Shown here piece by piece: positions 38,213-64,000 of a DNA stretch of 64,000 nucleotides; position 1 is the stretch's first letter; each line of letters opens with the position of its first letter. The translations under genes were made by a program, and so were the position numbers. The stretch is from positions 77,399 to 141,398 of the forward strand of contig DASPNM010000017.1 of assembly GCA_035626515.1 (NCBI GenBank). Reading direction: 5' to 3'. This DNA comes from Chitinophagaceae bacterium (GTDB taxonomy: Bacteria; Bacteroidota; Bacteroidia; Chitinophagales; Chitinophagaceae). The notes below the pieces were generated by a model that saw only the letters and a program-made list of their open reading frames with translations, was not told where the DNA came from and did not search any database.

Positions 38213-39271
38213 ATGCCGAAAACGGAGAAAAAGAACATACGGCACCTGAGTCTGCAGGACCTGGAGCATTATTTCGAGACACTGGGCGAGAAAAAATTTC
38301 GCGCGAGGCAGGTCTATGAATGGCTTTGGCAAAAACCCGTTCAAAGCTTTGCTGCCATGACCAATCTCTCTCTCGAGCTGCGGCAGAAGCTCACGGAACA
38401 GTTCGCGCTACCGGCACTTTCCATTGATACGGTGCAGCGCTCCTCGGACGGCACCGTAAAGACGCGCTTCCGCACCTGGGACGGCCATCTTGTCGAAGGT
38501 GTGCTGATTCCTACCGAAGCCCGCTACACCGCCTGTGTTTCCTCTCAGGTCGGCTGTTCCCTGAGCTGCAAGTTTTGCGCGACCGGCTATATGGATCGCA
38601 AAAGAAATTTGGAATTCGACGAGATCTATGACCAGGTAGCGATCATCAATAAGCAGTGTGAAGAACAGTATGGACAGCGACTGACCAATATCGTTTTCAT
38701 GGGCATGGGTGAACCCCTGCTCAATTACAAAAACGTTTTGAAAGGGATCGGACGGATAACCGCGCAGGACGGGATGGCCATGAGTCCACGGCGTATCACC
38801 GTCTCAACTGCAGGCGTAGCCAAACAGATCAGGCAGCTGGGCGACGATAAGGTGCGCTTCAAGCTCGCGCTTTCGCTCCATGCAGCGAACGACAAAAAGC
38901 GGCAGGAGATTATGCCGATCAACGATTCGAACAACATCCGCTCGCTCGTCGACGCCCTCAATTACTTCTACCGGCAGACCAAAAACGAGATCACCTTCGA
39001 GTACATCCTGTTCCGCAACTTCAATGATTCGCTTAAGGATGCTGACGAGCTGATCCGGCTCTACCGCCAGGTGCCGGTGGACCTTGTCAATATAATCGAA
39101 TACAACCCGATCGACTTTGCCTCGTTCGAAAAACCTGACGAAGCTGCCACCGAAACATTCATGAAATACCTGGAAAAGAACCGGGTAAATGCTCGCCTTC
39201 GCCGCAGCCGGGGGAAGGACATTGACGCCGCCTGCGGACAGCTTGCCAATAAAGGGGCCGCCGAAAACTAA
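38213..39271 (+). CDS. rlmN: 23S rRNA/tRNA (adenine-C2)-methyltransferase RlmN (radical SAM)
   Basis: Radical SAM CSLSCKFCATG motif. RlmN-like N-terminus (FRARQVYEWLW). ATG at 38213 is preferred over TTG at 38204. Confidence 0.93.
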   Translation: MPKTEKKNIRHLSLQDLEHYFETLGEKKFRARQVYEWLWQKPVQSFAAMTNLSLELRQKLTEQFALPALSIDTVQRSSDGTVKTRFRTWDGHLVEGVLIPTEARYTACVSSQVGCSLSCKFCATGYMDRKRNLEFDEIYDQVAIINKQCEEQYGQRLTNIVFMGMGEPLLNYKNVLKGIGRITAQDGMAMSPRRITVSTAGVAKQIRQLGDDKVRFKLALSLHAANDKKRQEIMPINDSNNIRSLVDALNYFYRQTKNEITFEYILFRNFNDSLKDADELIRLYRQVPVDLVNIIEYNPIDFASFEKPDEAATETFMKYLEKNRVNARLRRSRGKDIDAACGQLANKGAAEN

Positions 39272-50348: not shown

Positions 50349-51494
50349 ATGACGGGAGCACTCCGGCATATTGCCCACTTCGACCTCGATTCGTTTTTCG
50401 TTTCAGTAGAGATCCTTCGCGATCCCAACCTGAAAGGAAAGCCGGTCCTGGTGGGGGGACAGGAACGCGGAGTTGTGGCAGCCTGCAGCTACGAGGCGAG
50501 GAAATTCGGGATCCACTCGGCCATGCCCATGAAAACCGCCATGAAACTTTGCCCCGAAGCAGTGGTGATCAGCGGCAGCCGGGGGGAATACAGCAGGTAT
50601 TCCCGCTGGGTGACCGAGATCATCGCTTCCCGCGTGCCACTGTTTGAAAAAGCTTCAATTGACGAATTTTACATTGACCTCAGTGGAATGGATAAGTTTT
50701 TCGGCGTAAGCCGATACGCCCGCGAGCTCCGCGACCAGATCATTCGCGAGACCGGTCTTCCTATTTCGGGCGGACTTTCCTGCGCGAAATTCATCAGCAA
50801 GATGGCCACCAACGAGGCCAAGCCCAATGGCTTTCTCGAAATCCCACACGGCCGGGAAACCGAGTTTCTCTGGCCGCTTGAAATCGGAAAAATTAATGGA
50901 GTCGGCAAACAAACCGAAGCGCTTCTTAAGAGCTACGGCATTTACACCATTGCGGATATTGCCCGGCTTTCCGAAGAGCAAATGCAGCGGATCGCAGGAA
51001 AGTGGGGCGAGGCCCTCTGGCACAAGGCGCACGGGCGCGGCACAGCGGATGTCGACGCCGACTGGGAACAAAAGAGCATGAGTCACGAAAACACGTTCGA
51101 TACCGATCACAATGACGTGGAGTTTCTGCACGGCGAACTGGTGCGGCTCACGGAAAAAACAGCCCATATGCTGCGTTCCGAAGACAAACAAACCGGCTGC
51201 GTTACGGTAAAAATCCGTTACTCTGACTTCGAGACCACCTCCCGGCAGGAAACCATTGACTATACCTCCATTGATGACGAGCTGATCGCGAAGGTGAAGG
51301 ACCTTTTTAACCGCTCGTGGCAAAAAGGGCGGCCGGTCCGCCTGCTGGGCGTCCGTTTCAGCCACTTCATTCCTTTCACCATGCAGATGAGCCTATTTGA
51401 CAACCGCACCGAAAAGCTGAACCTGTACCGCGCGGTGGACGAGCTGCGCGACCAGTTTGGGGCAGATGTTCTTACGCGAGGAAGCAATTTGTAG
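50349..51494 (+). CDS. dinB: DNA polymerase IV (Y-family)
   Basis: 381 aa. HFDLDSFFVSVE catalytic motif and SIDEFYIDLS. Confidence 0.94.
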   Translation: MTGALRHIAHFDLDSFFVSVEILRDPNLKGKPVLVGGQERGVVAACSYEARKFGIHSAMPMKTAMKLCPEAVVISGSRGEYSRYSRWVTEIIASRVPLFEKASIDEFYIDLSGMDKFFGVSRYARELRDQIIRETGLPISGGLSCAKFISKMATNEAKPNGFLEIPHGRETEFLWPLEIGKINGVGKQTEALLKSYGIYTIADIARLSEEQMQRIAGKWGEALWHKAHGRGTADVDADWEQKSMSHENTFDTDHNDVEFLHGELVRLTEKTAHMLRSEDKQTGCVTVKIRYSDFETTSRQETIDYTSIDDELIAKVKDLFNRSWQKGRPVRLLGVRFSHFIPFTMQMSLFDNRTEKLNLYRAVDELRDQFGADVLTRGSNL

Positions 51495-51608
51495 TCGATA
51501 GTCGATAGTCTATAGTCTATAGTCAAAAAAAGGGGTTGCTTATTGTCTGGAGTTGAGGGTTGAGCGAGCACCGACGCCACAGACTATCGACTATCGACTA
51601 TCGACTAT
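51492..51608. repeat. Heptad inverted-repeat intergenic element (copy E2, best preserved)
   Basis: The left arm (TAGTCGA)2(TAGTCTA)2TAGTC spans 51492-51524, and its first TAG is the dinB stop. The right arm AGACTAT(CGACTAT)3 spans 51581-51608. The spacer is about 56 nt. The element is followed by (CCCTC)3 at 51609-51624. Confidence 0.75.
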
Positions 51609-51655
51609 CCCTCCCCTCCCCTCCATTTCCTATCTTCGCAGCAATCCCAAAGCAT

Positions 51656-55336: not shown

Positions 55337-56050
55337 TTACTCCGCTTTATATAATTTCTCCGACAGCTTCGGGTTCACCTCGATCTTTTCAAACGTCATG
55401 GTGCCGCCAAAGCCGCCGCTTGTGCTCTGGGTGAACGGGAAAATGTATCCATCCGTGGTCTTGTCGTAGTTGGCGTAAGTAATGACCACTTCTGTCTCTT
55501 CGGTGCCGCCGCGTGTCCTTCCCCTGAAGCTCAATCGATTAATATAATGCGTTCCCGCATCGATGAAGTAGGTCAGCTCCCTTCCGTCGCGGGTAGTCAC
55601 TTTCAGTTTCCAGTTTTCCTTTGCGTCTACCGTTTCCCTGCCCATCAGCTCTACCTTGTGTCCTTTCTCGGCGTAATTGAAAAATGGAGGCGTCGTTTCC
55701 ATTTCATGCCGCTGATTCTTCAACATTTGTTCGGCCATGGACTCGAAAGCTCCGCCCGACCTCATATTCGTCTGCCAGCCGCCGTCAGGCGTGATTAGAA
55801 TTTTCATCGAACTCATTCCAAAAGCCGTTTCGCGGCGAAAAAGCTTGTTGTTTTCCTTCCAAATCTCGGTGGTGACTTCGTTGCCGTTTGGCATCGTGGA
55901 AATCCCCACCAGGTGAAGGGTTTGAATAGAGCTGAGCTTCTCCTTGCCACCCATCGCTTCTGCGTACCGGGCAATTACCTCGTCCGCCGTTTGCGCCTGC
56001 GTCCCAATGGTCCCAACCAGCAGGCAAACTGAAAATAAAATACCTTTCAT
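55337..56050 (-). CDS. Exported LolA-fold/outer-membrane lipoprotein-sorting-like protein
   Basis: 237 aa. Signal peptide. The pattern ([18 protein letters not shown] ... W.LKVT..DG....YFID..T) resembles the LolA-like lipoprotein-sorting family. Family assignment is tentative. Confidence 0.55.
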
Positions 56051-57766: not shown

Positions 57767-57948
57767 GCCCGGCCTTATCCCTTTGTTAAAAAAGTGCAAC
57801 TCAACGACCTGCGCGCCGTAGCAGGGGCGCATTTCACATTTCCTTGCTAAGCATTTCACGCTTTTTTGAATCTAATATTTCAGAAAAAGGGTTACAAAAG
57901 CCCGGTGGTGTTGATATAGTAACGAGGACAATCTGAAAAACATTCGAT

Positions 57949-58254
57949 ATGAAAAATTCTTTACACATCAGCGCTTCGTTCGACAAACCTGATTTCGTCG
58001 AACAACTGGTTGAACAACTGGCACAGCGCAGAATCGATCATGGGTATGGAAAAGAACAGGTTCCATGCGGACTAAAAGCCGTCGATAGCTCCTCGACCGA
58101 GGCTTACGTCAGCGGCGACCTTGCCGTCACTTACCTCGACGACGCGGGCAGGGTAGATCGCATTAACATGCCCTTTATCACCTGTTTTCTCTTCACCTGC
58201 GTGAAGCCCAATCAGGGAGCATATGGGCTCGCATGGGGTGTTTCCCTATCATGA
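57949..58254 (+). CDS. Hypothetical small protein (weak call)
   Basis: 101 aa ORF with an ATG start. The first ~75 residues look protein-like. The last 43 nt overlap the convergent CHAT gene. No recognisable family. Confidence 0.3.
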   Translation: MKNSLHISASFDKPDFVEQLVEQLAQRRIDHGYGKEQVPCGLKAVDSSSTEAYVSGDLAVTYLDDAGRVDRINMPFITCFLFTCVKPNQGAYGLAWGVSLS

Positions 58255-60953
58255 GGGCGCCTTCGCAATTTCCAGAATACAAAAACAGTTACCAGGATGA
58301 TCAACCCCATCCCGGCGATCAAAAAGCCCCTCAGTTTGGGATCTGTCGCCGTCACGACAATTTTTTCTCCGTTGCCTGCATATACCAGTCCGGCCCAGAA
58401 ATAAGGCAGCTTTCGAAAACCTTCATGTTGTTTTGTTTCCAGCCATTCCAGCTTTGCTTCCCGCAGGGCCGCGACGGGATTTCCGTGCTGTGCGAGCCGG
58501 CGATAAAAAGATTGAATCAGGGCGGCCGCGGCTTCATCATTCAGGTTCCAGAGTCCCGCAATGATCCCTCCGGCGCCGGCTGCGGTAAAACCTCGCGCCA
58601 GGCTGATAATGCCTTCACCTTCGGCGATGATCCCATGCCCGGTGCGACAGGCACTTAGCACAACAAGCTGCGGACGAAAACTTTTTCCATGCAGCTCGAA
58701 AAGAAAAAAACGGCTGTCCCAAAGCTGAAGCGCGGGCACCGCCTGCTCTCCCTGCAAATAAGAATGGGTGCTGATATGAAGCAGCTTCACGCGCGGCAGT
58801 TCCCGCCGAAACTCATCCAGGGAAGCCTGCTCATCCCTCAGAAATCTGCCCTTTAGTTCTTTCCGCAGTGCGCGGTACTCCCGCGTTACCGCGGGGATCG
58901 CAGAATTTTTTTCTTTACCTGAGGCAATGAAGAAGCCGGCGACATCGTGCTTCTCCCGCGGAATTTTCTTTTGCTGTTGCCAGGTTTGCAGCGAGTAACC
59001 ATAAAACATATTGCGCTCACGCAACAAAAACGGCCAGTCGGCCGGATTGCTGCGGTAGACGGAATCGGTCACAAGCGCCTCGAATGGAATAAACCCGATC
59101 ATGCCATCAGGAATGATCAATACCTGGGCATAGTGATTTGCGGCCTCAGGCCACAGCTGCCGATAGAAAAAATAAGATTCCCGGAAATACGCCTGCGGCT
59201 GGTTTACCATTGCGGCGGCACCCTGCTGGAAATAACGGCTGGAAAAATCACGGATCTGGCGCACCAGCGCATTCGCCTGGGTTATTTGTTGAACGCCACG
59301 AATACCGCTTCGGTCCAGGGTGAGAACATAAAGGTTGCTGTCGCCCACGAAAAACTCAACGACACCCACTCCCGGCGGGATTTGTGCAAGCATCGGGTCA
59401 AGCCGGGGAAGATCCTCACTGGCTGCCAGCACCGGATAGCGCTCCCGCAGGTCCTTGCTAAGCAGGGAAAGCTCGAATTCCAGCTGTTGCTTCCGCTGTT
59501 GCGTGGCCGCTGCCGCCGGATCGGCGGATTGAACAGACATCAGATCTTTTTCATAATAAGAGATGGCCTGTAAAAGTCGCTCCCGTTTGAAGAGCAGGCT
59601 GTCGTCCTGCTTCAGGCTGCTGTAACGGAGGTTCGTCGCCAGCTCCTCGTGCAGGAGCTGGGACTTGCTGAGCTCAGCGATCAGCAGAAGTGGCGCGGCG
59701 TCGCCGTCGCGCTTCCACAGGCGAAATGCGGCATCCATGGCGGAGCCGGTCCAGGCCCGGTCTTCCTTTTGCCGTTGTTTCCTCGCTTCCAGTCCAAAGA
59801 ATTCGCCGCGGAGTTCCCGGCCAACATCGAACATCAGTAGCGAAACGGCCACTGCTGCTTTGTCATTACCCGCGGCGACGAAACATTTCATTTTTCCGTG
59901 CAGGGCGTCTAAAATTGTATTTTCTCCATAAAGCAAATTTGCCGACGGAAGCTTATCTCGTTCCCAGGAGGGTAGCAGTAACCGTAGCGATCGGTCGAAC
60001 TCAAGCGCAGCAAAGGCGCTTTTCTTTTGCAACAACAGAACTTCTCCCATGGCAACATGCAGTTTGGCACGCTCCCGGCTTCTTTGGCCGGGATAATTCT
60101 GTTCAACAATGCGGAGCGCACGCGAGTAAGAATTTAGCGCCTCTTCGTATTGCTTTTTCCGTTTCAGGATATCCCCCAGGCCCTGCCACGCCCCACGCAG
60201 CCAGTAAGCGGCAGAAGGTTCCGCCTTGTTGCGAACGTGCGGAGTAAGGATGCCGATAGCTTCCCTGCAAACCAATTGGGCGGAATCTGTTTTGTTCTGC
60301 AGGAACAAAATTTCAGCTAAAGTAGACAGCAACAGACCGTGGATCGCAGAACCGGGCTGGCTGAAGCCGATCCCGATCGCACAGTATCTCTTTGCATCAT
60401 CGACGTCTCCCCGCCATCGCGAGGTGGTGGCAATGTTGTGATATCCCGACGCCAGGGTTGCTGAGTCTTTTGCAAGCGCGATCAGTCGCTGCTGGATGAA
60501 GAGAGCGCGGTCGTAGTCACCAAGCCGTGTGTAATTGTTGCCGAGCGGCTTCAGCACGTATTCTATGAGCTCGGCGTCCGGAATTCTTTTGTCGACCGAA
60601 AACCGGTAAGCCTCCTCGTATGCATCGATAGACCTCAGGATATCCCCTTTCACAATCGAATAATAACCTTCGCCGGTCAGCAGGTTGAAAAATGCCAGGC
60701 ACTCATCCGGATCGCGACAATCACGCCAGGCATTTCGCCGCGCTTCTGCCAGCAACGCAAAGCGGTTCACGGGATCTTCATAGACATAATCACCGTGGGC
60801 GTAAAGCCATTCCAACAGATTGTTTGCGCCTCGAAGAGAGTCGAGTCGCTGCTGCAGGGAGGGCGGCAATTGCAGCGTGCTGTCCGGGCGCTCCTGTGCC
60901 AGAGCAAAAAAAAGCGCGAACGCTGCCAGCAAGGCGAACAGACGGCGGATCAT
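58212..60953 (-). CDS. Exported TPR-CHAT domain protein (caspase-fold Cys/His peptidase-like) with C-terminal membrane anchor
   Basis: 913 aa. Signal peptide MIRRLFALLAAFALFFALAQ. TPR-like N-terminal half. CHAT domain about residues 610-860 (VLIIPDGMIGFIPFEAL; LLHISTHS with His730, codon 58764-58766; VVLSACRTG with Cys769, codon 58647-58649; GLWNLNDEAAAALIQSFY; PYFWAGLVYAG). C-terminal TM helix GFLIAGMGLIILVTVFVFW. Confidence 0.88.
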   Translation of the reverse strand: MIRRLFALLAAFALFFALAQERPDSTLQLPPSLQQRLDSLRGANNLLEWLYAHGDYVYEDPVNRFALLAEARRNAWRDCRDPDECLAFFNLLTGEGYYSIVKGDILRSIDAYEEAYRFSVDKRIPDAELIEYVLKPLGNNYTRLGDYDRALFIQQRLIALAKDSATLASGYHNIATTSRWRGDVDDAKRYCAIGIGFSQPGSAIHGLLLSTLAEILFLQNKTDSAQLVCREAIGILTPHVRNKAEPSAAYWLRGAWQGLGDILKRKKQYEEALNSYSRALRIVEQNYPGQRSRERAKLHVAMGEVLLLQKKSAFAALEFDRSLRLLLPSWERDKLPSANLLYGENTILDALHGKMKCFVAAGNDKAAVAVSLLMFDVGRELRGEFFGLEARKQRQKEDRAWTGSAMDAAFRLWKRDGDAAPLLLIAELSKSQLLHEELATNLRYSSLKQDDSLLFKRERLLQAISYYEKDLMSVQSADPAAAATQQRKQQLEFELSLLSKDLRERYPVLAASEDLPRLDPMLAQIPPGVGVVEFFVGDSNLYVLTLDRSGIRGVQQITQANALVRQIRDFSSRYFQQGAAAMVNQPQAYFRESYFFYRQLWPEAANHYAQVLIIPDGMIGFIPFEALVTDSVYRSNPADWPFLLRERNMFYGYSLQTWQQQKKIPREKHDVAGFFIASGKEKNSAIPAVTREYRALRKELKGRFLRDEQASLDEFRRELPRVKLLHISTHSYLQGEQAVPALQLWDSRFFLFELHGKSFRPQLVVLSACRTGHGIIAEGEGIISLARGFTAAGAGGIIAGLWNLNDEAAAALIQSFYRRLAQHGNPVAALREAKLEWLETKQHEGFRKLPYFWAGLVYAGNGEKIVVTATDPKLRGFLIAGMGLIILVTVFVFWKLRRRPHDRETPHASPYAP

Positions 60954-60977: not shown

Positions 60978-62954
60978 TCATAAACGCCAGCCGGCGTAAA
61001 TGAAGAGGCGATTATGCGGAAAACGGAAGAAATGAAGGAATCGAACACCTACTACAGGGCCTACGCGAACCCTGCCTAGCTGCACGTCTCCAAAAAGCGA
61101 ATAATCCACACGGCGGAACCATTGACCCTGCGAGTAGGTCTTTTCGATCGTGAAGGGGTTGGGATTGGGGGGCTGAACAATGCGAATCACTTCCCGGTAT
61201 TGAACCCGCGTGTAGGCATCCATGCTGATCTGGGTCCCCGCCCCGACTCCGAGCCAGTCCATGATGTTGTAACGCAGCTGTAGCGGTACGAGCTCGAGCT
61301 TAATAATGGCGGGACGGCCATAAATGTCGCGGCCGCGGATAAGAGCGTCGCTCCCGTTCACTACGGTGTCCTTGTTTTCATTGGTAGTGCCTTCGAATCT
61401 TTCCCGAAGACGCCGGTAACCGAGAAATGCTTCCACCTGCAGGTATTTCCTGTGCGGGGCATAAGGCGCCCATCCCGCGCCCGCAAGGAAATAATGCTCC
61501 TCCTTGTTGTTCTTTGCCTGCTCGCCCAGCAACCTGCTGTATCCAACCATCAGCGAAGGAGAATTTCCCGGCATGAAATGACCGCGCGCCGAATTGGTTC
61601 GGACGGGCTCGTTGCGGTCGAATGTGATCTGAGCGCCGCTCTCAAAAGGGATTTTTTTCAACTCGCGGTTGAACTGGAGCCGGTAACGGATGAATCCCTG
61701 CGTAGAATCTATATCGGAGAACCCATCCTGCCGCAACCCGGGGAGGTAAATATTCCTGAAGATAAAATAGATGCTGTCGCTCGTGAACACCGTATCCAAA
61801 CAACTTTGTCCCGGTCGCGCAGCTGAACAGGGAATCGTCCTCGGGTAAAACTCGAGTATGTCCAAGCTGCGCGGATTTAGCATCGGGGGTACGCTCACTG
61901 CCACGGTTATGTTGCTTGCCGGTCCGCGCCCGGTATTCTGGAAGCGCACCTTGTAGGTCATTTCCCGTTTCTTGTCCGTGAACCTGTAGTTCAGCCGCTG
62001 GTTGCGCAGCATCATCCGGTTCGGGTCGTGTGAGGCGACGATCTGCAGCTCGAGGTCCACCTGCTCCAGTTCCGCGTTCGGATCGTCGGGTACGAACATA
62101 CCGGTGATCAGCACCACAGCGTTCGTGTCGCGGATCATTTCCGGGGTCGTGTGCAACGTAATGAAGAAAAATTTTTCTTCTCCCTTATCCAAACCCGAAA
62201 ACCGCCACGCAGCACTTTCACGGAACAGCTTTTGCCTGGAGGTGATTAGTTCCGAAAATCTCCCCGCGAATCCAGGATTGAGTTCACGGTCTTCCGTGCC
62301 CGACGGACCCGAGATTACGGGCTGTCGGGTTGTTTCGAGCAGCTCGTTCGCGGGAGCCCGTGCGATCACTGCAGACAGCGTCGTGCGGGATTCATTGTTG
62401 TAAACTCTATCTTCTCCGAAATCGAAATTGTCTTTCCGGAATTGCCTTTCGTTGTAGAAAAGAAGCAGCGACCCACTTGCTGCTGTGCCCGCTTCATTCC
62501 TGTATCCCATGATCAGCACCAGGTCTTCATCCGGTCGCGGCATCCGGTTCACCTTCATTGCCAGGCTGCCGGGCTCCTTGAAAAACCCGGAAGGTCGTGG
62601 TTGAACGTTGACGCTTTTGTTGGATACATATACTGCCTTAGGCCGCTTTATTGGCGGAGGCTTGCCGTCGTCATAATTGTTCGTGGCGAAAAGGCGGATT
62701 TCGTACGCCCCGGTATCGCGAAATACGTGTCGGGGTTTCTCTTCAAAGCTAAAGCTGCCGTCACCGAACTCCCAGTAATAGGAATAAAAGGCGGCGGGCG
62801 CGCCGGCAATCTGGCGCAGGGGCCGCAGCACGGAGTTGAAGCTGGCCTGGTTATCCTTTAACTGCACGCTAATGACGGCGGTATCCGGCTGCGCTACCGC
62901 GCCGGGCATGGCGCCGATCAGGACGATGAAAGCGGCAAAAACTCGGGGCCGCAT
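60978..62954 (-). CDS. Exported multidomain protein: N-terminal PKD domain, central HDPN/DUF11-like Ig-fold region, C-terminal beta-barrel-like region
   Basis: 658 aa. Signal peptide. PKD signature YWEFGDGSFSFEEKPRHVFRDTGAYEIRLFATN (about nt 62670-62882). SHDPNRM followed by YKVRFQNTGRGPASNITVAVSVP and ITFDRNEPVRTNS. The last ~200 aa have an alternating aromatic/hydrophobic pattern. The CHAT gene follows after 24 nt. Confidence 0.7.
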   Translation of the reverse strand: MRPRVFAAFIVLIGAMPGAVAQPDTAVISVQLKDNQASFNSVLRPLRQIAGAPAAFYSYYWEFGDGSFSFEEKPRHVFRDTGAYEIRLFATNNYDDGKPPPIKRPKAVYVSNKSVNVQPRPSGFFKEPGSLAMKVNRMPRPDEDLVLIMGYRNEAGTAASGSLLLFYNERQFRKDNFDFGEDRVYNNESRTTLSAVIARAPANELLETTRQPVISGPSGTEDRELNPGFAGRFSELITSRQKLFRESAAWRFSGLDKGEEKFFFITLHTTPEMIRDTNAVVLITGMFVPDDPNAELEQVDLELQIVASHDPNRMMLRNQRLNYRFTDKKREMTYKVRFQNTGRGPASNITVAVSVPPMLNPRSLDILEFYPRTIPCSAARPGQSCLDTVFTSDSIYFIFRNIYLPGLRQDGFSDIDSTQGFIRYRLQFNRELKKIPFESGAQITFDRNEPVRTNSARGHFMPGNSPSLMVGYSRLLGEQAKNNKEEHYFLAGAGWAPYAPHRKYLQVEAFLGYRRLRERFEGTTNENKDTVVNGSDALIRGRDIYGRPAIIKLELVPLQLRYNIMDWLGVGAGTQISMDAYTRVQYREVIRIVQPPNPNPFTIEKTYSQGQWFRRVDYSLFGDVQLGRVRVGPVVGVRFLHFFRFPHNRLFIYAGWRL

Positions 62955-63029: not shown

Positions 63030-63176
63030 GACATTCAACTCCATGCCCAAAGCAGGTAAACCATTACCGAAACCATGAAACAGATCTTCGCCTTCATACA
63101 ATTGCCTTTACCCTAGATCAGCGGGCTCGTGGCTTGTTACCCTTTTTGATTATATTTATTTGGAAAGCCAGAACAA

Positions 63177-63755
63177 ATGGCCGAGCCTGCGCGCATCATC
63201 CATTCCGACCAGCGGTTTCTGAACGGTCTGCTGCAGAACGATGCCGCCGTTGTAAAAGAGATCTACGACCGGTTTTCCGCCCGGGTCCGCGCTTACGTTA
63301 CGCAAAACAACGGATCGGAGGACGACGCTGCGGACATTTTCCAGGAGGCACTTATTGATATTTACCAACAAGCCCGCGACAAAGGGCTGCAGCTCACCTG
63401 CCCGTTCGAGGCATTCCTGCTTCTTGTATGTAAACGTAAATGGCTGAACGAGTTGAAAAAAAGAGGCCAGCGACGGGTAACATCCGATCCCGAAACCTTA
63501 TCTATAGCGGGGGAGGATGCAGAGCAGCTCGCGGAACAGCTGCACCTCGAACAGAAAAGAGCCGATCTTTTCCTGCGGATGTTCCGGAAGCTCGGGAAAA
63601 AATGCCAGCAGATCATCGGTGTTTGCCTCAGCAGGCGACCGCAGGAGGAAGTGGCTGCGGAGCTGGGCCTGAGCTACGCTTACCTGCGGAAGAAAAAATC
63701 GGAATGCATGGCAACGCTGATTCAATCCATCCAGGCCGAACAAAACAACTCATGA
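63177..63755 (+). CDS. ECF-type (group 4-like) sigma-70 family RNA polymerase sigma factor
   Basis: 192 aa. Region 2 (DDAADIFQEALIDIY...FEAFLLLVCKRKWLNELKK) and region 4 HTH (PQEEVAAELGLSYAYLRKKKSEC). Confidence 0.85.
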   Translation: MAEPARIIHSDQRFLNGLLQNDAAVVKEIYDRFSARVRAYVTQNNGSEDDAADIFQEALIDIYQQARDKGLQLTCPFEAFLLLVCKRKWLNELKKRGQRRVTSDPETLSIAGEDAEQLAEQLHLEQKRADLFLRMFRKLGKKCQQIIGVCLSRRPQEEVAAELGLSYAYLRKKKSECMATLIQSIQAEQNNS

Positions 63756-64000
63756 AGGAATTCGACTACGATATTATCTCCCGCTATGTGGATGAAGAAA
63801 TGAGTCCGGCTGAACGAATGGACTTCGAACAGCAAATGCAACGTGAACCAGAGCTGAGAAAACAGGTTGAGCTCTATTTCGAAGTCACCAAGTCGTTGCA
63901 ACGCCGGCTGCACCCGGCAAAAGAGGAAGCGGAGCTTCGCCGGACTCTTGAGCAGCTTCGTCCCCAATATTTCCAAACCCGTTCACGGGTGGTTCCGATG
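63752..64000 (+). CDS. Putative anti-sigma factor, N-terminal part (runs off the right window edge)
   Basis: Not in the ORF track. ATG at 63752 overlaps the sigma stop (ATGA). My translation is MKEFDYDIISRYVDEEMSPAERMDFEQQMQREPELRKQVELYFEVTKSLQRRL..., which has the usual N-terminal anti-sigma helix pattern. Confidence 0.6.
   Translation, partial: MKEFDYDIISRYVDEEMSPAERMDFEQQMQREPELRKQVELYFEVTKSLQRRLHPAKEEAELRRTLEQLRPQYFQTRSRVVPM

What the first reader, a model, noticed from the sequence alone, without database searches (positions are those of the whole stretch)
58212..60953. Envelope-located TPR-CHAT (caspase-fold) protein with signal peptide and C-terminal membrane anchor
- Seen in sequence: a 913 aa product with a cleavable-looking signal peptide and about 400 aa of TPR-like helical repeats.
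- It has a coiled region, then a complete CHAT domain. The His/Cys dyad contexts are intact (LLHISTH730S, VVLSAC769RTG).
- A single C-terminal TM helix (res ~876-894) and a short basic tail follow.
- Established knowledge: CHAT domains are clan CD caspase-like peptidases.
- The characterised bacterial examples I know are cytoplasmic. These are TPR-CHAT Csx29 of type III-E CRISPR and CHAT proteases that activate bacterial gasdermins or other conflict-system effectors.
- Here there is no CRISPR, gasdermin-sized gene or nuclease nearby.
- The predicted topology puts the protease in the periplasm, tethered to the inner membrane.
- Inference: a proteolytic signalling or processing module acting in the cell envelope. 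It is plausibly linked to the co-oriented surface protein upstream and to the divergent ECF sigma/anti-sigma pair.
- This is the most system-like, uncharacterised part of the window.
Basis: partly seen in the sequence, partly recalled or inferred. Interest (0 to 1): 0.7.

Follow-up and report, generated by a model that had tools for sequence, protein, structure and literature searches.

The report
Periplasmic caspase-like protease in sigma-factor module
This gene encodes a caspase-like (TPR-CHAT) protease predicted to sit in the periplasm tethered to the inner membrane, and it belongs to a conserved, uncharacterised Bacteroidota gene module with an outer-membrane partner and an ECF sigma/anti-sigma pair that appears to switch it on.

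Summary
ORF 58212-60953(-) encodes a 913-aa protein: SPase-I-type signal peptide (ALA|Q), ~475 aa of TPR/helical repeats, a complete CHAT domain (PF12770, E=1e-47) and a C-terminal TM helix with a K/R tail. H730/C769 align with the DdvA dyad H862/C907 and are kept in 120/120 and 118/120 homologues.

The link to its neighbours is real. The PKD/DUF7619/DUF7849 gene lies directly upstream in 68/69 genome loci. Its C-terminus is predicted to be an OmpX/OmpA-like outer-membrane barrel. The divergent ECF sigma/anti-sigma pair is present in 57/61 loci.

New here: a bipartite ECF-type promoter (GGTAACA-N14/15-TGATAT) in 56/62 loci points at the partner-CHAT operon. Further copies sit before a small convergent ORF and inside the sigma gene, where synonymous sites are frozen.

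Myxococcus DdvA (2024, cryo-EM) is an anti-sigma factor with a periplasmic TPR-CHAT, and it is the closest solved relative by sequence.

This locus differs from DdvA: stand-alone protease, opposite membrane topology, separate TPR anti-sigma, outer-membrane partner, no defence genes. Verdict: an uncharacterised new variant of a known kind. Substrate and function remain inferred.

The parts
58212..60953 (-). TPR-CHAT protease gene (913 aa), with these sub-features in nucleotides: signal peptide residues 1-19 (60897-60953); helical/TPR array residues 31-505 (59439-60863); CHAT fold residues 529-861 (58371-59369); His730 codon 58764-58766; Cys769 codon 58647-58649; TM helix residues 874-896 (58266-58334); basic cytoplasmic tail residues 897-913 (58215-58265).
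60978..62954 (-). Partner gene (658 aa), ending 24 nt before the CHAT start codon. Signal peptide with AVA|Q; PKD residues 57-94; DUF7619 beta-sandwich residues 310-456; DUF7849 residues 463-658, predicted as a small OmpX/Ail/OmpA-like outer-membrane beta-barrel.
   Evidence: directly upstream on the same strand in 68/69 loci
63115..63141 (-). ECF-type bipartite promoter motif GGTAACA-N14-TGATCT, oriented towards the partner/CHAT operon. It is the only perfect match in the 64-kb window.
   Evidence: TGTTACC core in 56/62 loci against about 1 expected; spacing 15 nt in 65/74 instances
63177..63755 (+). ECF sigma factor gene (192 aa), divergent from the operon.
   Evidence: Pfam Sigma70_r2; TIGR02937 sigma70-ECF 51.4 bits against cut-off 42.9; present and divergent in 57/61 loci
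63476..63503 (+). Intragenic copy of the promoter motif (GGTAACA-N15-TTATCT) in the sigma2-sigma4 linker codons, 277 nt upstream of the anti-sigma start. Probably a sigma-dependent internal promoter.
   Evidence: Val101 is GTA in 61/62 and Thr102 is ACA in 62/62, while control codons use all synonyms
63752..64000 (+). 5' part (first 83 codons) of the anti-sigma gene, cut by the window end. Full length is 244 aa on sister contig L001: N-terminal anti-sigma-domain-like helices, TM about 89-107, periplasmic TPR domain. Its start overlaps the sigma stop (ATGA).
   Evidence: (TPR_19 E=1.3e-10; zf-HC2 weak, E=0.009)
57890..57917 (+). Third promoter-motif copy (GGTTACA-N15-TGATAT), 31 nt upstream of the small ORF.
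   Evidence: the equivalent motif precedes the orthologous small ORF in L004-L008 and L038
57949..58254 (+). Small conserved ORF (101 aa; no signal peptide, no Pfam match), convergent with the CHAT gene and overlapping its 3' end by 43 nt. Putative clade-specific regulon member.
   Evidence: (44-53% identity over full length in 7 loci)

Best explanation
The gene encodes an active-site-intact TPR-CHAT cysteine protease. It is exported by a cleavable signal peptide and held on the periplasmic face of the inner membrane by a C-terminal TM helix, only about 12 residues after the CHAT domain.

It is co-transcribed and near-translationally coupled with an outer-membrane-anchored Ig/PKD protein that has a DUF7849 barrel. 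The operon promoter (GGTAACA-N14/15-TGATAT) is of ECF type and sits next to a divergent ECF sigma / single-pass TPR anti-sigma pair.

Proposed mechanism:
1. An envelope signal sensed by the anti-sigma TPR ectodomain frees sigma.
2. Sigma switches on the partner-CHAT operon, which includes a lipoprotein in most relatives, plus a small accessory ORF.
3. Through an intragenic promoter, sigma also re-supplies anti-sigma (negative feedback).
4. The protease then acts as a gated, single-substrate 'switch' protease, as every characterised TPR-CHAT does, on a protein encoded in its own module.
5. The most likely target is the periplasm-facing portion of its outer-membrane partner, captured by the highly conserved TPR surface (KPLGNNYTRLGDY).

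Shown: domain content, dyad, conserved topology signals, synteny, promoter motif and its orientation.
Inferred: that this sigma uses that promoter, that the partner faces the periplasm, the substrate identity, and the physiological output.
For: - Protease identity and intact dyad.
- Periplasmic, inner-membrane-anchored topology, conserved family-wide.
- Partner gene upstream in 68/69 loci, with intergenic gaps that are mostly under 150 nt and sometimes overlaps. The gap is 24 nt in the window.
- Partner C-terminus resembles OmpX/Ail/OmpA-TM barrels (TM-score normalised to target 0.46-0.58). Its signal peptide fits the Q-rule in 89/93.
- Sigma/anti-sigma present in 57/61 loci.
- Promoter motif in 56/62 loci, fixed 15-nt spacing in 65/74, oriented towards the operon, and still present in L019 where sigma is not adjacent.
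- Extra motif copies in front of accessory envelope genes and inside sigma, the latter with synonymous-site constraint.
- Within the 64-kb window the only good motif copies belong to this module, so the visible regulon is the module itself.
- In the characterised bacterial TPR-CHAT systems read here, the substrate or proposed substrate is encoded in the same locus (Csx30; DdvA's own linker, proposed but not demonstrated).
- The periplasmic parts of CHAT and partner covary after controlling for sigma (partial r 0.60-0.67).
Against: - No experiment exists on any member, and no cleavage site can be read from sequence.
- The partner's orientation (periplasmic or surface) is not established. Its model is only moderate (pLDDT 74.5, pTM 0.43).
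- The motif-sigma assignment rests on adjacency and ECF-like form (an AAC-containing -35 element), not on data.
- The mirror-tree signal does not clearly favour the partner over the anti-sigma ectodomain (0.63-0.67 against 0.52-0.57).
- The two best-studied CHAT-sigma precedents point to the sigma inhibitor, not an outer-membrane protein, as the target.
Confidence: 0.45

Rival explanations
1. Split-DdvA model. The TPR-CHAT is the signal-gated site-1 protease of this ECF pathway. On a cue, possibly relayed by the outer-membrane partner, it cuts the anti-sigma's periplasmic juxtamembrane linker or TPR ectodomain. That exposes the remnant to RseP-type intramembrane cleavage and frees sigma. Sigma then makes more sensor and protease (feed-forward) and more anti-sigma (reset).
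For: - Rosetta-stone logic: in DdvA an anti-sigma domain, a TM helix and a periplasmic TPR-CHAT form one polypeptide next to its ECF sigma, and DdvA is the only PDB sequence the CHAT-only profile detects (E=7e-6).
- Csx29 cleaves Csx30, an inhibitor of an ECF-type sigma. ECF54 sigmas also have CHAT proteins in their conserved context.
- The CHAT domain is only about 12 residues from its TM helix, which places the active site at the membrane surface where the anti-sigma linker lies.
- The anti-sigma family has a conserved juxtamembrane segment, PWxxDLYxxY...ERG.
- The anti-sigma periplasmic domain covaries with CHAT (partial r 0.52-0.57), whereas its cytoplasmic domain does not (0.17-0.20).
Against: - The protease gene sits behind the sigma-type promoter, so it would depend on basal expression to start the loop.
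- The partner-CHAT pair persists without an adjacent sigma/anti-sigma pair in 3 loci (L019, L031, L081).
- The CHAT-partner linkage (68/69) is tighter than the CHAT-anti-sigma linkage (57/61).
- Proteolysis by DdvA's own CHAT domain has not been demonstrated.
Confidence: 0.3
2. General envelope quality-control protease. Like DegP in the sigma-E regulon, the protease is simply a stress-induced periplasmic degradative enzyme with broad specificity, and the outer-membrane partner and lipoprotein are unrelated co-induced envelope proteins.
For: - It lies behind an ECF-type promoter, alongside other exported proteins.
- It is widespread and apparently vertically inherited in Chitinophagia and Sphingobacteriia, with no defence-island context.
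Against: - Characterised TPR-CHAT/separase-type proteases are allosterically gated and substrate-specific.
- The near-obligate, tightly spaced pairing with one particular outer-membrane protein (68/69) and the highly conserved TPR patch argue for a dedicated partner.
Confidence: 0.1
3. Envelope-level anti-phage sensor. As proposed for DdvA, the periplasmic TPR-CHAT and the Ig/PKD outer-membrane protein detect a phage protein crossing the envelope and trigger a sigma-dependent defence programme.
For: - The DdvA precedent.
- A weak PADLOC match of the CHAT core to BovA (E=5.8e-6).
- Ig/PKD domains are common in phage-host interfaces (from general knowledge).
Against: - No CBASS, CRISPR, nuclease, gasdermin or other defence gene lies in the +/-10 kb flanks or the 64-kb window.
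- The flanks are housekeeping genes.
- The module is syntenic across two classes of Bacteroidota, as a core gene set would be, not patchy like defence islands.
- All visible promoter copies drive envelope proteins of the module itself.
Confidence: 0.07
4. Catalytically silent scaffold. The CHAT domain is a pseudo-protease, and the protein only bridges inner- and outer-membrane components through its TPRs.
For: - DdvA's CHAT domain has an incomplete active site and is captured in a resting state.
- The loop after Cys769 (residues 770-780) is modelled with low confidence.
Against: - His730 is kept in 120/120 and Cys769 in 118/120. The surrounding residues T771, G774, G779, E780 and G781 are each kept in 118/120.
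- The match covers the full Pfam CHAT profile.
- This degree of conservation indicates selection on catalysis.
Confidence: 0.04

Closest known systems
DdvA (Myxococcus xanthus transmembrane anti-sigma factor with a periplasmic TPR-CHAT; PDB 8ROT/8RW5; PMC11506125)
   Same: - Periplasmic TPR-CHAT attached to the inner membrane and encoded next to an ECF sigma factor.
- The His/Cys dyad aligns: H730 with H862 and C769 with C907.
- It is the only PDB chain detectable by sequence with the CHAT-only profile (E=7e-6), and it is also a Foldseek hit (E about 1e-11).
   Different: - DdvA is itself the anti-sigma: N-terminal zinc anti-sigma domain, TM helix, long linker, then TPR-CHAT, with the C-terminus free.
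- Here the protease has a cleavable signal peptide and a C-terminal TM anchor, with no anti-sigma domain. A separate 244-aa TPR anti-sigma exists.
- Here there is an obligatory outer-membrane partner (DUF7849).
- DdvA's regulon is a CBASS/CRISPR defence island, and none is present here.
- DdvA-like proteins were reported only in Myxococcota and one Comamonas species.
- Whether this protein has the three-helix motif DdvA lacks was not tested.
Csx29 / craspase TPR-CHAT of type III-E CRISPR (PDB 8EEY, 7Y83; PMC10028731)
   Same: - Best overall structural matches (Foldseek E=8e-16).
- Same order, TPR array then CHAT.
- The protease acts on a locus-encoded regulator of an ECF-type sigma (Csx30 / CASP-sigma).
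   Different: - Cytoplasmic, bound to Cas7-11 and gated by target RNA.
- No signal peptide or TM helix.
- Not detectable by sequence with the CHAT profile.
- No CRISPR or cas genes here.
Separase (eukaryotic clan CD protease; e.g. PDB 5U1S, 7NJ1)
   Same: - Helical-repeat region followed by a caspase-fold domain with a His/Cys dyad.
- Foldseek E about 1e-10.
   Different: - Eukaryotic and nuclear/cytoplasmic, securin-regulated, much larger.
- No membrane anchoring.
HetF (Anabaena CHAT protease, divisome component; PMC8406250)
   Same: - Founding CHAT-family member.
- Membrane-anchored by a single TM segment, and it also carries TPRs.
   Different: - Reverse order: N-terminal CHAT (aa 1-555) without a signal peptide, then TM, then TPR.
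- That layout implies a cytoplasmic CHAT domain.
- It functions with FtsI in cell division and heterocyst differentiation, and has no sigma/anti-sigma context.
ECF54 sigma group genomic context (CHAT, subtilase and carboxypeptidase proteins; PMC8999054, PMC7826278)
   Same: - Conserved co-location of an ECF sigma with a CHAT-domain protein.
- Proteolytic control of sigma has been proposed.
   Different: - ECF54 is actinobacterial and lacks an anti-sigma factor.
- This locus is from Bacteroidota and has a clear single-pass anti-sigma.
DegS/RseA/sigma-E and FecA/FecR/FecI trans-envelope signalling (functional analogues only)
   Same: - Logic of an inner-membrane-anchored periplasmic protease or outer-membrane sensor controlling a single-pass anti-sigma.
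- A sigma-dependent promoter in front of the adjacent envelope operon.
   Different: - Unrelated protein families: serine protease with PDZ domain, TonB-dependent transducer, FecR domain. None of these was detected here.

Membership tests
CHAT domain family (Pfam PF12770; clan CD caspase-hemoglobinase fold) | Significant full-length match to the CHAT profile | tested here: met
   163.5 bits against gathering cut-off 24, E=9.9e-48, profile positions 11-289 of 289
CHAT domain family (Pfam PF12770; clan CD caspase-hemoglobinase fold) | Catalytic His and Cys at the canonical positions following consecutive beta-strands | tested here: met
   H730 follows strand 722-728 and C769 follows strand 763-768 in the model. 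They align with DdvA H862/C907. Conserved in 120/120 and 118/120 homologues.
CHAT domain family (Pfam PF12770; clan CD caspase-hemoglobinase fold) | Peptidase activity | not testable with these tools
   Requires biochemistry: an activity-based probe, or substrate cleavage with a C769A control.
TPR-CHAT (separase/craspase-type) architecture | N-terminal helical/TPR array followed by a C-terminal CHAT domain in one chain, with overall fold similarity | tested here: met
   AlphaFold2 model pLDDT 87. Foldseek top hits are Csx29 (E=8e-16), craspase TPR-CHAT, DdvA and separases.
DdvA-like TPR-CHAT anti-sigma factors | N-terminal cytoplasmic (zinc) anti-sigma domain on the same polypeptide | tested here: not met
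   The N-terminus is a signal peptide followed directly by TPRs. There is no ASD or zf-HC2 match in the 913-aa protein. The anti-sigma domain is on a separate 244-aa protein.
DdvA-like TPR-CHAT anti-sigma factors | TM helix N-terminal to a periplasmic TPR-CHAT | tested here: not met
   The single TM helix is C-terminal (residues 874-896), and this is conserved across the family.
DdvA-like TPR-CHAT anti-sigma factors | Encoded next to its cognate ECF sigma | tested here: met
   The sigma gene is divergent, about 2.2 kb away, in 57/61 loci.
DdvA-like TPR-CHAT anti-sigma factors | [quoted passage not shown] | not tested
   The position of the motif could not be mapped without the figures or coordinates. 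Only the C-terminal half of the CHAT domain aligns by sequence.
Type III-E craspase (Csx29) | Genomic and physical association with Cas7-11/gRAMP, a CRISPR array and Csx30/Csx31 | tested here: not met
   No repeat array in the window. No cas-like genes in +/-10 kb. No PADLOC hit for the neighbours.
Gasdermin-activating CHAT/caspase-like proteases | Adjacent bacterial gasdermin gene | tested here: not met
   The neighbours are a PKD/DUF7849 protein, sigma, anti-sigma, adenine deaminase and a 101-aa ORF. The protease is also predicted to be extracytoplasmic.
HetF-type CHAT proteins | N-terminal cytoplasmic CHAT, then TM, then TPR | tested here: not met
   The domain order here is signal peptide, TPR, CHAT, TM, against the HetF organisation in PMC8406250.
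ECF sigma / class-I-like single-pass anti-sigma pair (the regulators of the module) | Sigma with sigma2 and sigma4 regions matching ECF models | tested here: met
   TIGR02937 51.4 bits against cut-off 42.9, covering residues 27-183. Sigma70_r2 also matches.
ECF sigma / class-I-like single-pass anti-sigma pair (the regulators of the module) | Downstream co-transcribed protein with an N-terminal anti-sigma domain, one TM helix and an extracytoplasmic sensor domain | tested here: inconclusive
   The gene overlaps the sigma stop codon, has a TM helix at about 89-107 and a periplasmic TPR_19 match (E=1.3e-10). However, the ASD match is sub-threshold (zf-HC2 E=0.009, 16.5 bits against 22.2). Sigma binding is untested.
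ECF54 CHAT-associated sigma group | Actinobacterial sigma without an anti-sigma factor | tested here: not met
   The source is a Chitinophagaceae MAG and an anti-sigma is present. The sigma was not placed in the ECF tree.
Small 8-stranded outer-membrane beta-barrels (OmpX/Ail/OmpA-TM-like), for the partner's DUF7849 domain | C-terminal all-beta antiparallel barrel with structural similarity to known outer-membrane barrels | tested here: inconclusive
   The DUF7849 region is modelled at pLDDT about 80-95 as long antiparallel strands. Foldseek hits are OmpX 1qj9, Ail 3qrc and OmpA 1qjp, with TM-score normalised to target 0.46-0.58. Strand number and membrane insertion were not verified.

The most novel reading that the evidence does not exclude
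The module is a new type of trans-envelope signalling device.
- An outer-membrane barrel protein with periplasmic Ig/PKD domains reports outer-membrane or cell-surface status.
- It passes that signal to an inner-membrane-tethered caspase-like protease.
- The protease then performs the site-1 cut of a separate TPR anti-sigma factor.

This would be the first caspase-fold site-1 protease in regulated intramembrane proteolysis. It would be a 'split' and complete-active-site counterpart of DdvA, with self-amplification through the operon promoter and reset through the intragenic anti-sigma promoter. It is conserved as a core system across Chitinophagia and Sphingobacteriia.
Probability: 0.25. Interest if true: 0.8.

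Novelty: new variant of a known kind. Interest (0 to 1): 0.55.

Why it matters
Caspase-fold CHAT proteases are known as intracellular switches (separase, craspase, gasdermin activators). The single periplasmic example, DdvA, has an incomplete active site, an unknown trigger and no demonstrated cleavage.

This family offers a complete, invariant active site in a stand-alone periplasmic protein. It comes with a defined outer-membrane partner, a defined sigma/anti-sigma pair and a predicted promoter. It is present in hundreds of species, including cultivable Chitinophaga, Pedobacter, Niastella and Mucilaginibacter.

That makes one question directly testable: can a caspase-like protease work in the bacterial envelope, either as the site-1 protease of an ECF pathway or as a dedicated processor of an outer-membrane protein? 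It would also assign a first context to two domains of unknown function (DUF7619 and DUF7849).

Tried and rejected
- Single-sequence phmmer against the PDB found only TPR proteins. A CHAT-only profile was needed to reach DdvA.
- NCBIfam and PADLOC gave no specific family for the protease or the partner. The weak BovA hit covers only the CHAT core.
- The ECF classification paper does not mention CHAT in its main text, and its supplements are not held. The sigma could therefore not be assigned to a numbered ECF group. ECF54 was rejected on taxonomy and on the presence of an anti-sigma here.
- Five literature queries found no description of this Bacteroidota cluster.
- The sigma has no PDB sequence relative at E<=0.01.
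- Lipoprotein X has no Pfam family and no meaningful PDB match. The small ORF has no Pfam family.
- A sortase- or exosortase-type C-terminal sorting signal was considered for the TM-plus-basic-tail. It was rejected because no conserved motif precedes the TM helix and that region is the least conserved part of the protein.
- I first read the conserved TTGTTACCCC word as a sigma-gene promoter. Re-orientation showed the bipartite element points the other way, towards the CHAT operon.
- The mirror-tree rate-covariation test, meant to choose between partner and anti-sigma as the protease's counterpart, did not discriminate.
- The generic sigma-70 promoter/terminator scan was uninformative, with counts at the shuffle expectation.
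- The window-only motif count is not significant by itself (3 matches against 1.2 expected; 11 of 100 shuffles reach 3). The evidence for the motif is its cross-locus conservation. The 2-mismatch site at 38988 lies inside an opposite-strand ORF and was dismissed.
- The first MAFFT run on 120 sequences timed out and was repeated with faster settings.

Full report
**1. The observation**

- Pfam gives a full-length CHAT match: PF12770, E=9.9e-48, 163.5 bits against a cut-off of 24, residues 600-861 covering profile positions 11-289 of 289. Several TPR families match between residues 96 and 325.
- An AlphaFold2 model built on 30 homologues is confident (mean pLDDT 87, pTM 0.82). It shows helical repeats from residue 31 to about 505, an alpha/beta domain at 529-860 and a terminal helix at 872-898.
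- The quoted dyad contexts are present.
- In an alignment of 120 homologues, H730 is kept in 120/120 and C769 in 118/120. T771, G774, G779, E780 and G781 are each kept in 118/120.
- A CHAT-only profile searched against all PDB sequences finds one significant chain, DdvA (8rot_B, E=7e-6). In the printed alignment H730 pairs with DdvA H862 and C769 with DdvA C907. The DdvA paper names those two residues as the catalytic dyad (PMC11506125).
- Foldseek against the PDB returns Csx29/craspase TPR-CHAT (E=8e-16), DdvA (about 1e-11) and separases (about 1e-10).

The protease identity and an intact active site are therefore confirmed.

**2. Topology**

SignalP and TMHMM were not available, so I used sequence features and, more importantly, their conservation.

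- Residues 1-19 (MIRRLFALLAAFALFFALA) form an n-region plus h-region, followed by ALA|Q.
- Bacteroidota SPase I substrates typically start with Gln (the 'Q-rule', cited from memory). Of 105 homologues with an N-terminal hydrophobic region, 75 have a (-3)-x-small|Q site against 8% background. Most of the others have ordinary A-x-A-type sites.
- The only other TM-grade segment is residues 874-896 (Kyte-Doolittle 2.46 for the best 19-mer, 876-894), followed by KLRRRPHDRE.
- Across 117 full-length homologues the C-terminal anchor is present in 97 by a strict threshold. The tail has a median of 8 residues with 4 K/R, and no internal segment reaches TM hydrophobicity.
- No conserved motif precedes the TM helix, and this region is the least conserved part of the protein. 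It therefore looks like a plain anchor rather than a sortase- or exosortase-type sorting signal.

Inference: the roughly 850-residue TPR-CHAT body is periplasmic. It is tethered to the inner membrane by a C-terminal helix that begins only about 12 residues after the CHAT domain, so the active site lies close to the membrane surface.

**3. The neighbourhood is a conserved module**

The source is a Chitinophagaceae MAG. Sister contigs show what lies beyond position 64000. The sigma gene (63177-63755) is followed, with an ATGA overlap, by a 244-aa gene. That protein has:

- an anti-sigma-domain-like N-terminus (zf-HC2, weak, E=0.009);
- a TM helix at about residues 89-107;
- a periplasmic TPR domain (TPR_19, E=1.3e-10).

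The window holds its first 83 codons, identical to the sister contig.

A scan of one genome per GTDB species gave at least 585 confirmed relatives, and I fetched 78 loci. In these:

- the PKD/DUF7619/DUF7849 gene lies immediately upstream on the same strand in 68 of 69 loci with enough flank;
- the divergent sigma plus anti-sigma pair is present in 57 of 61 (L045 is counted as positive because the two genes overlap by 4 nt);
- partner-to-CHAT gaps are mostly under 150 nt and sometimes overlaps, and the gap is 24 nt in the window;
- about 45 of 61 loci carry an additional lipoprotein gene of roughly 320-360 aa as the first gene of the operon. It has no Pfam family and no PDB relative, and it is absent from this window and from 10 other loci.

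The module occurs in Chitinophagaceae, in Sphingobacteriaceae (Pedobacter, Mucilaginibacter) and, at 26% identity, in a Lutibacter genome. Its flanks are housekeeping genes. There is no CRISPR array, Rfam RNA or defence gene.

**4. The partner protein**

- It has a signal peptide with AVA|Q. The Q-rule holds in 89 of 93 homologues against 1.6% background.
- It contains a PKD domain, a DUF7619 beta-sandwich and a C-terminal DUF7849 domain.
- The model (pLDDT 74.5 overall, about 80-95 in DUF7849) shows long antiparallel strands at the C-terminus.
- Foldseek matches that part to OmpX, Ail and the OmpA TM domain (TM-score normalised to target 0.46-0.58). It matches the N-terminal part to Ig-like adhesin and integrin-leg arrays.

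In small even-stranded barrels both termini face the periplasm (established knowledge for OmpA and OmpX). By default, then, the roughly 440-residue Ig/PKD region hangs into the periplasm, where it could meet the inner-membrane-anchored protease.

**5. A promoter links sigma to the CHAT operon**

- K-mer enrichment in the divergent intergenic regions found TGTTACC in 56 of 62 loci, against about 1 expected.
- Read towards the operon, it is a bipartite element: GGGGTAACAaa, then N, then GtTGATaTa. The spacing between GGTAACA and TGAT is 15 nt in 65 of 74 instances. An AAC-containing -35 element with a fixed spacer is the ECF pattern (established knowledge).
- In the window the element is at 63115-63141(-), GGTAACA-N14-TGATCT. 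It is the only perfect match in 64 kb, and it is a conserved island in otherwise diverged intergenic DNA.
- It persists in L019, where sigma is not adjacent.

Further copies occur at these places:

a. A 101-aa ORF convergent with CHAT (window 57949-58254; motif at 57890-57917, one mismatch). This ORF is 44-53% identical in 7 loci of the window's subclade, and the motif was detected upstream of its orthologue in six of them.
b. Accessory exported proteins in other clades.
c. Inside the sigma gene at 63476-63503(+), 277 nt upstream of the anti-sigma start.

The intragenic copy is under DNA-level selection. Val101 is GTA in 61/62 sigma genes and Thr102 is ACA in 62/62, and codon 100 always ends in G although it encodes P, G, Q or R. 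Control codons Gly112 and Ala119 use all four synonyms.

The simplest reading is that sigma activates the partner-CHAT operon and, through an internal promoter, re-supplies anti-sigma. That this particular sigma recognises the motif is inferred from adjacency, not shown.

**6. Mechanism**

Every characterised TPR-CHAT protease is a gated, substrate-specific switch. In the bacterial cases read here, the substrate or proposed substrate is encoded in the same locus: Csx30 for Csx29, and DdvA's own linker, which is proposed but not demonstrated.

Applying that rule, the candidate substrates are the outer-membrane partner (linked in 68/69 loci) and the anti-sigma (57/61). The lipoprotein is dispensable, since the window lacks it, and the small ORF has no export signal.

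*Best explanation (confidence 0.45).* A sigma-induced, dedicated periplasmic protease-partner pair. Supporting points:

- the protease gene sits behind the sigma-type promoter;
- the visible regulon is the module itself;
- the CHAT-partner coupling is the tightest linkage.

*Main rival (0.30).* A 'split DdvA' model in which CHAT performs the site-1 cut of the anti-sigma. Supporting points:

- Rosetta-stone logic with DdvA;
- the Csx29-Csx30-CASP-sigma precedent and the ECF54 context;
- the membrane-proximal active site;
- a conserved anti-sigma juxtamembrane segment, PWxxDLYxxY...ERG.

The two are not mutually exclusive.

A mirror-tree test did not separate them. After controlling for sigma, all periplasmic parts covary (partial r 0.50-0.67). 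The values are 0.63-0.67 for CHAT with the partner's N-terminal region and 0.52-0.57 for CHAT with the anti-sigma ectodomain. The cytoplasmic anti-sigma domain does not covary (0.11-0.20).

Less likely readings are general quality control (0.10), phage sensing (0.07) and a silent scaffold (0.04), for the reasons given under the rival explanations.

**7. Comparison with known systems and novelty**

By membership, this is a CHAT-family, TPR-CHAT-architecture protease. All sequence and fold criteria are met, and activity is untestable here.

| Known type | Why this is not a member |
|---|---|
| DdvA-type anti-sigma | No anti-sigma domain; the TM helix is at the opposite end |
| Craspase (Csx29) | No CRISPR or cas genes |
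| HetF type | Reversed domain order; cytoplasmic CHAT implied |
| Gasdermin activator | No adjacent gasdermin gene |
| ECF54 context | Actinobacterial group without an anti-sigma |

It probably works most like DdvA or Csx29, as a TPR-CHAT switch wired to an ECF sigma circuit.

However, the stand-alone signal peptide-TPR-CHAT-TM protease, its DUF7849 outer-membrane partner, the separate TPR anti-sigma and the promoter architecture are not described in any paper I could find. The supplementary ECF group descriptions could not be checked.

I rate it a new variant of a known kind, with interest 0.55. It is widespread, self-contained and present in cultivable genera. It could settle whether caspase-fold proteases operate in the bacterial envelope and in sigma-factor signalling.

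Noticed in passing
window 63476-63503 (+), inside the sigma gene 63177-63755: ECF-type motif copy (GGTAACA-N15-TTATCT) in the sigma2-sigma4 linker codons, with frozen synonymous sites across 62 loci (Val101 GTA 61/62; Thr102 ACA 62/62). It suggests a sigma-dependent internal promoter driving the anti-sigma gene, and possibly a sigma4-only product from an in-frame Met seen in many relatives.
   Followed up: partly
window 57949-58254 (+), motif at 57890-57917: Conserved 101-aa ORF with no known domain or signal peptide. It is convergent with the CHAT gene, overlaps its 3' end by 43 nt, and has its own copy of the promoter motif. It is found only in the window's subclade (7 loci, 44-53% identity).
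   Followed up: partly
relatives, between the sigma gene and the DUF7849 gene (e.g. L012 6820-7773; L017 6817-7788): A lipoprotein of about 320-360 aa (lipobox 'ACKKD'; no Pfam family, no PDB sequence relative) is the first gene of the operon in about 45/61 loci. It is missing from this window and 10 other loci. In L005 and L015 a 281-285-aa lipoprotein with its own motif lies downstream of the CHAT gene instead.
   Followed up: partly
L021 4851-6677; L025 5882-7753; L028 5526-7580; L046 5696-7726; also L058, L064, L073, L074 and L076 downstream of the anti-sigma gene: Clade-specific accessory genes. The first group are 600-680-aa exported proteins whose C-terminal sequence looks OmpA-C-like; a motif copy was detected upstream only in L028, and a partial one in L046. 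The second group are 120-177-aa secreted proteins, each with its own copy of the GGTAACA-N15-TGATAT motif. The regulon appears to be made of envelope proteins.
   Followed up: no
window 51492-51524 and 51582-51609: Two short heptamer tandem arrays, (TAGTCGA)x4.7 and (GACTATC)x4, which are reverse complements of each other in register. They form a long potential hairpin between the DinB-like gene (50349-51494) and the M20 peptidase gene.
   Followed up: no
window 55337-56050 (-): 237-aa predicted secreted protein (signal peptide ending TQA|Q) with no Pfam match, located between the fatty-acid desaturase and adenine deaminase genes.
   Followed up: no
L001 1-6325 (beyond window position 64000): Beyond the anti-sigma gene the source contig carries a signalling cluster: a TPR histidine kinase, a 7TMR-DISM histidine kinase, a response regulator, a response regulator with a guanylate/adenylate cyclase domain, and an HD/YitT membrane protein. 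This cluster is not conserved next to the module in other genomes.
   Followed up: no
residues 101-150 of the CHAT protein (window about 60504-60653): The most conserved stretch of the TPR array is the invariant KPLGNNYTRLxDY motif. It is as conserved as the catalytic-Cys region and is a likely ligand-binding surface.
   Followed up: no
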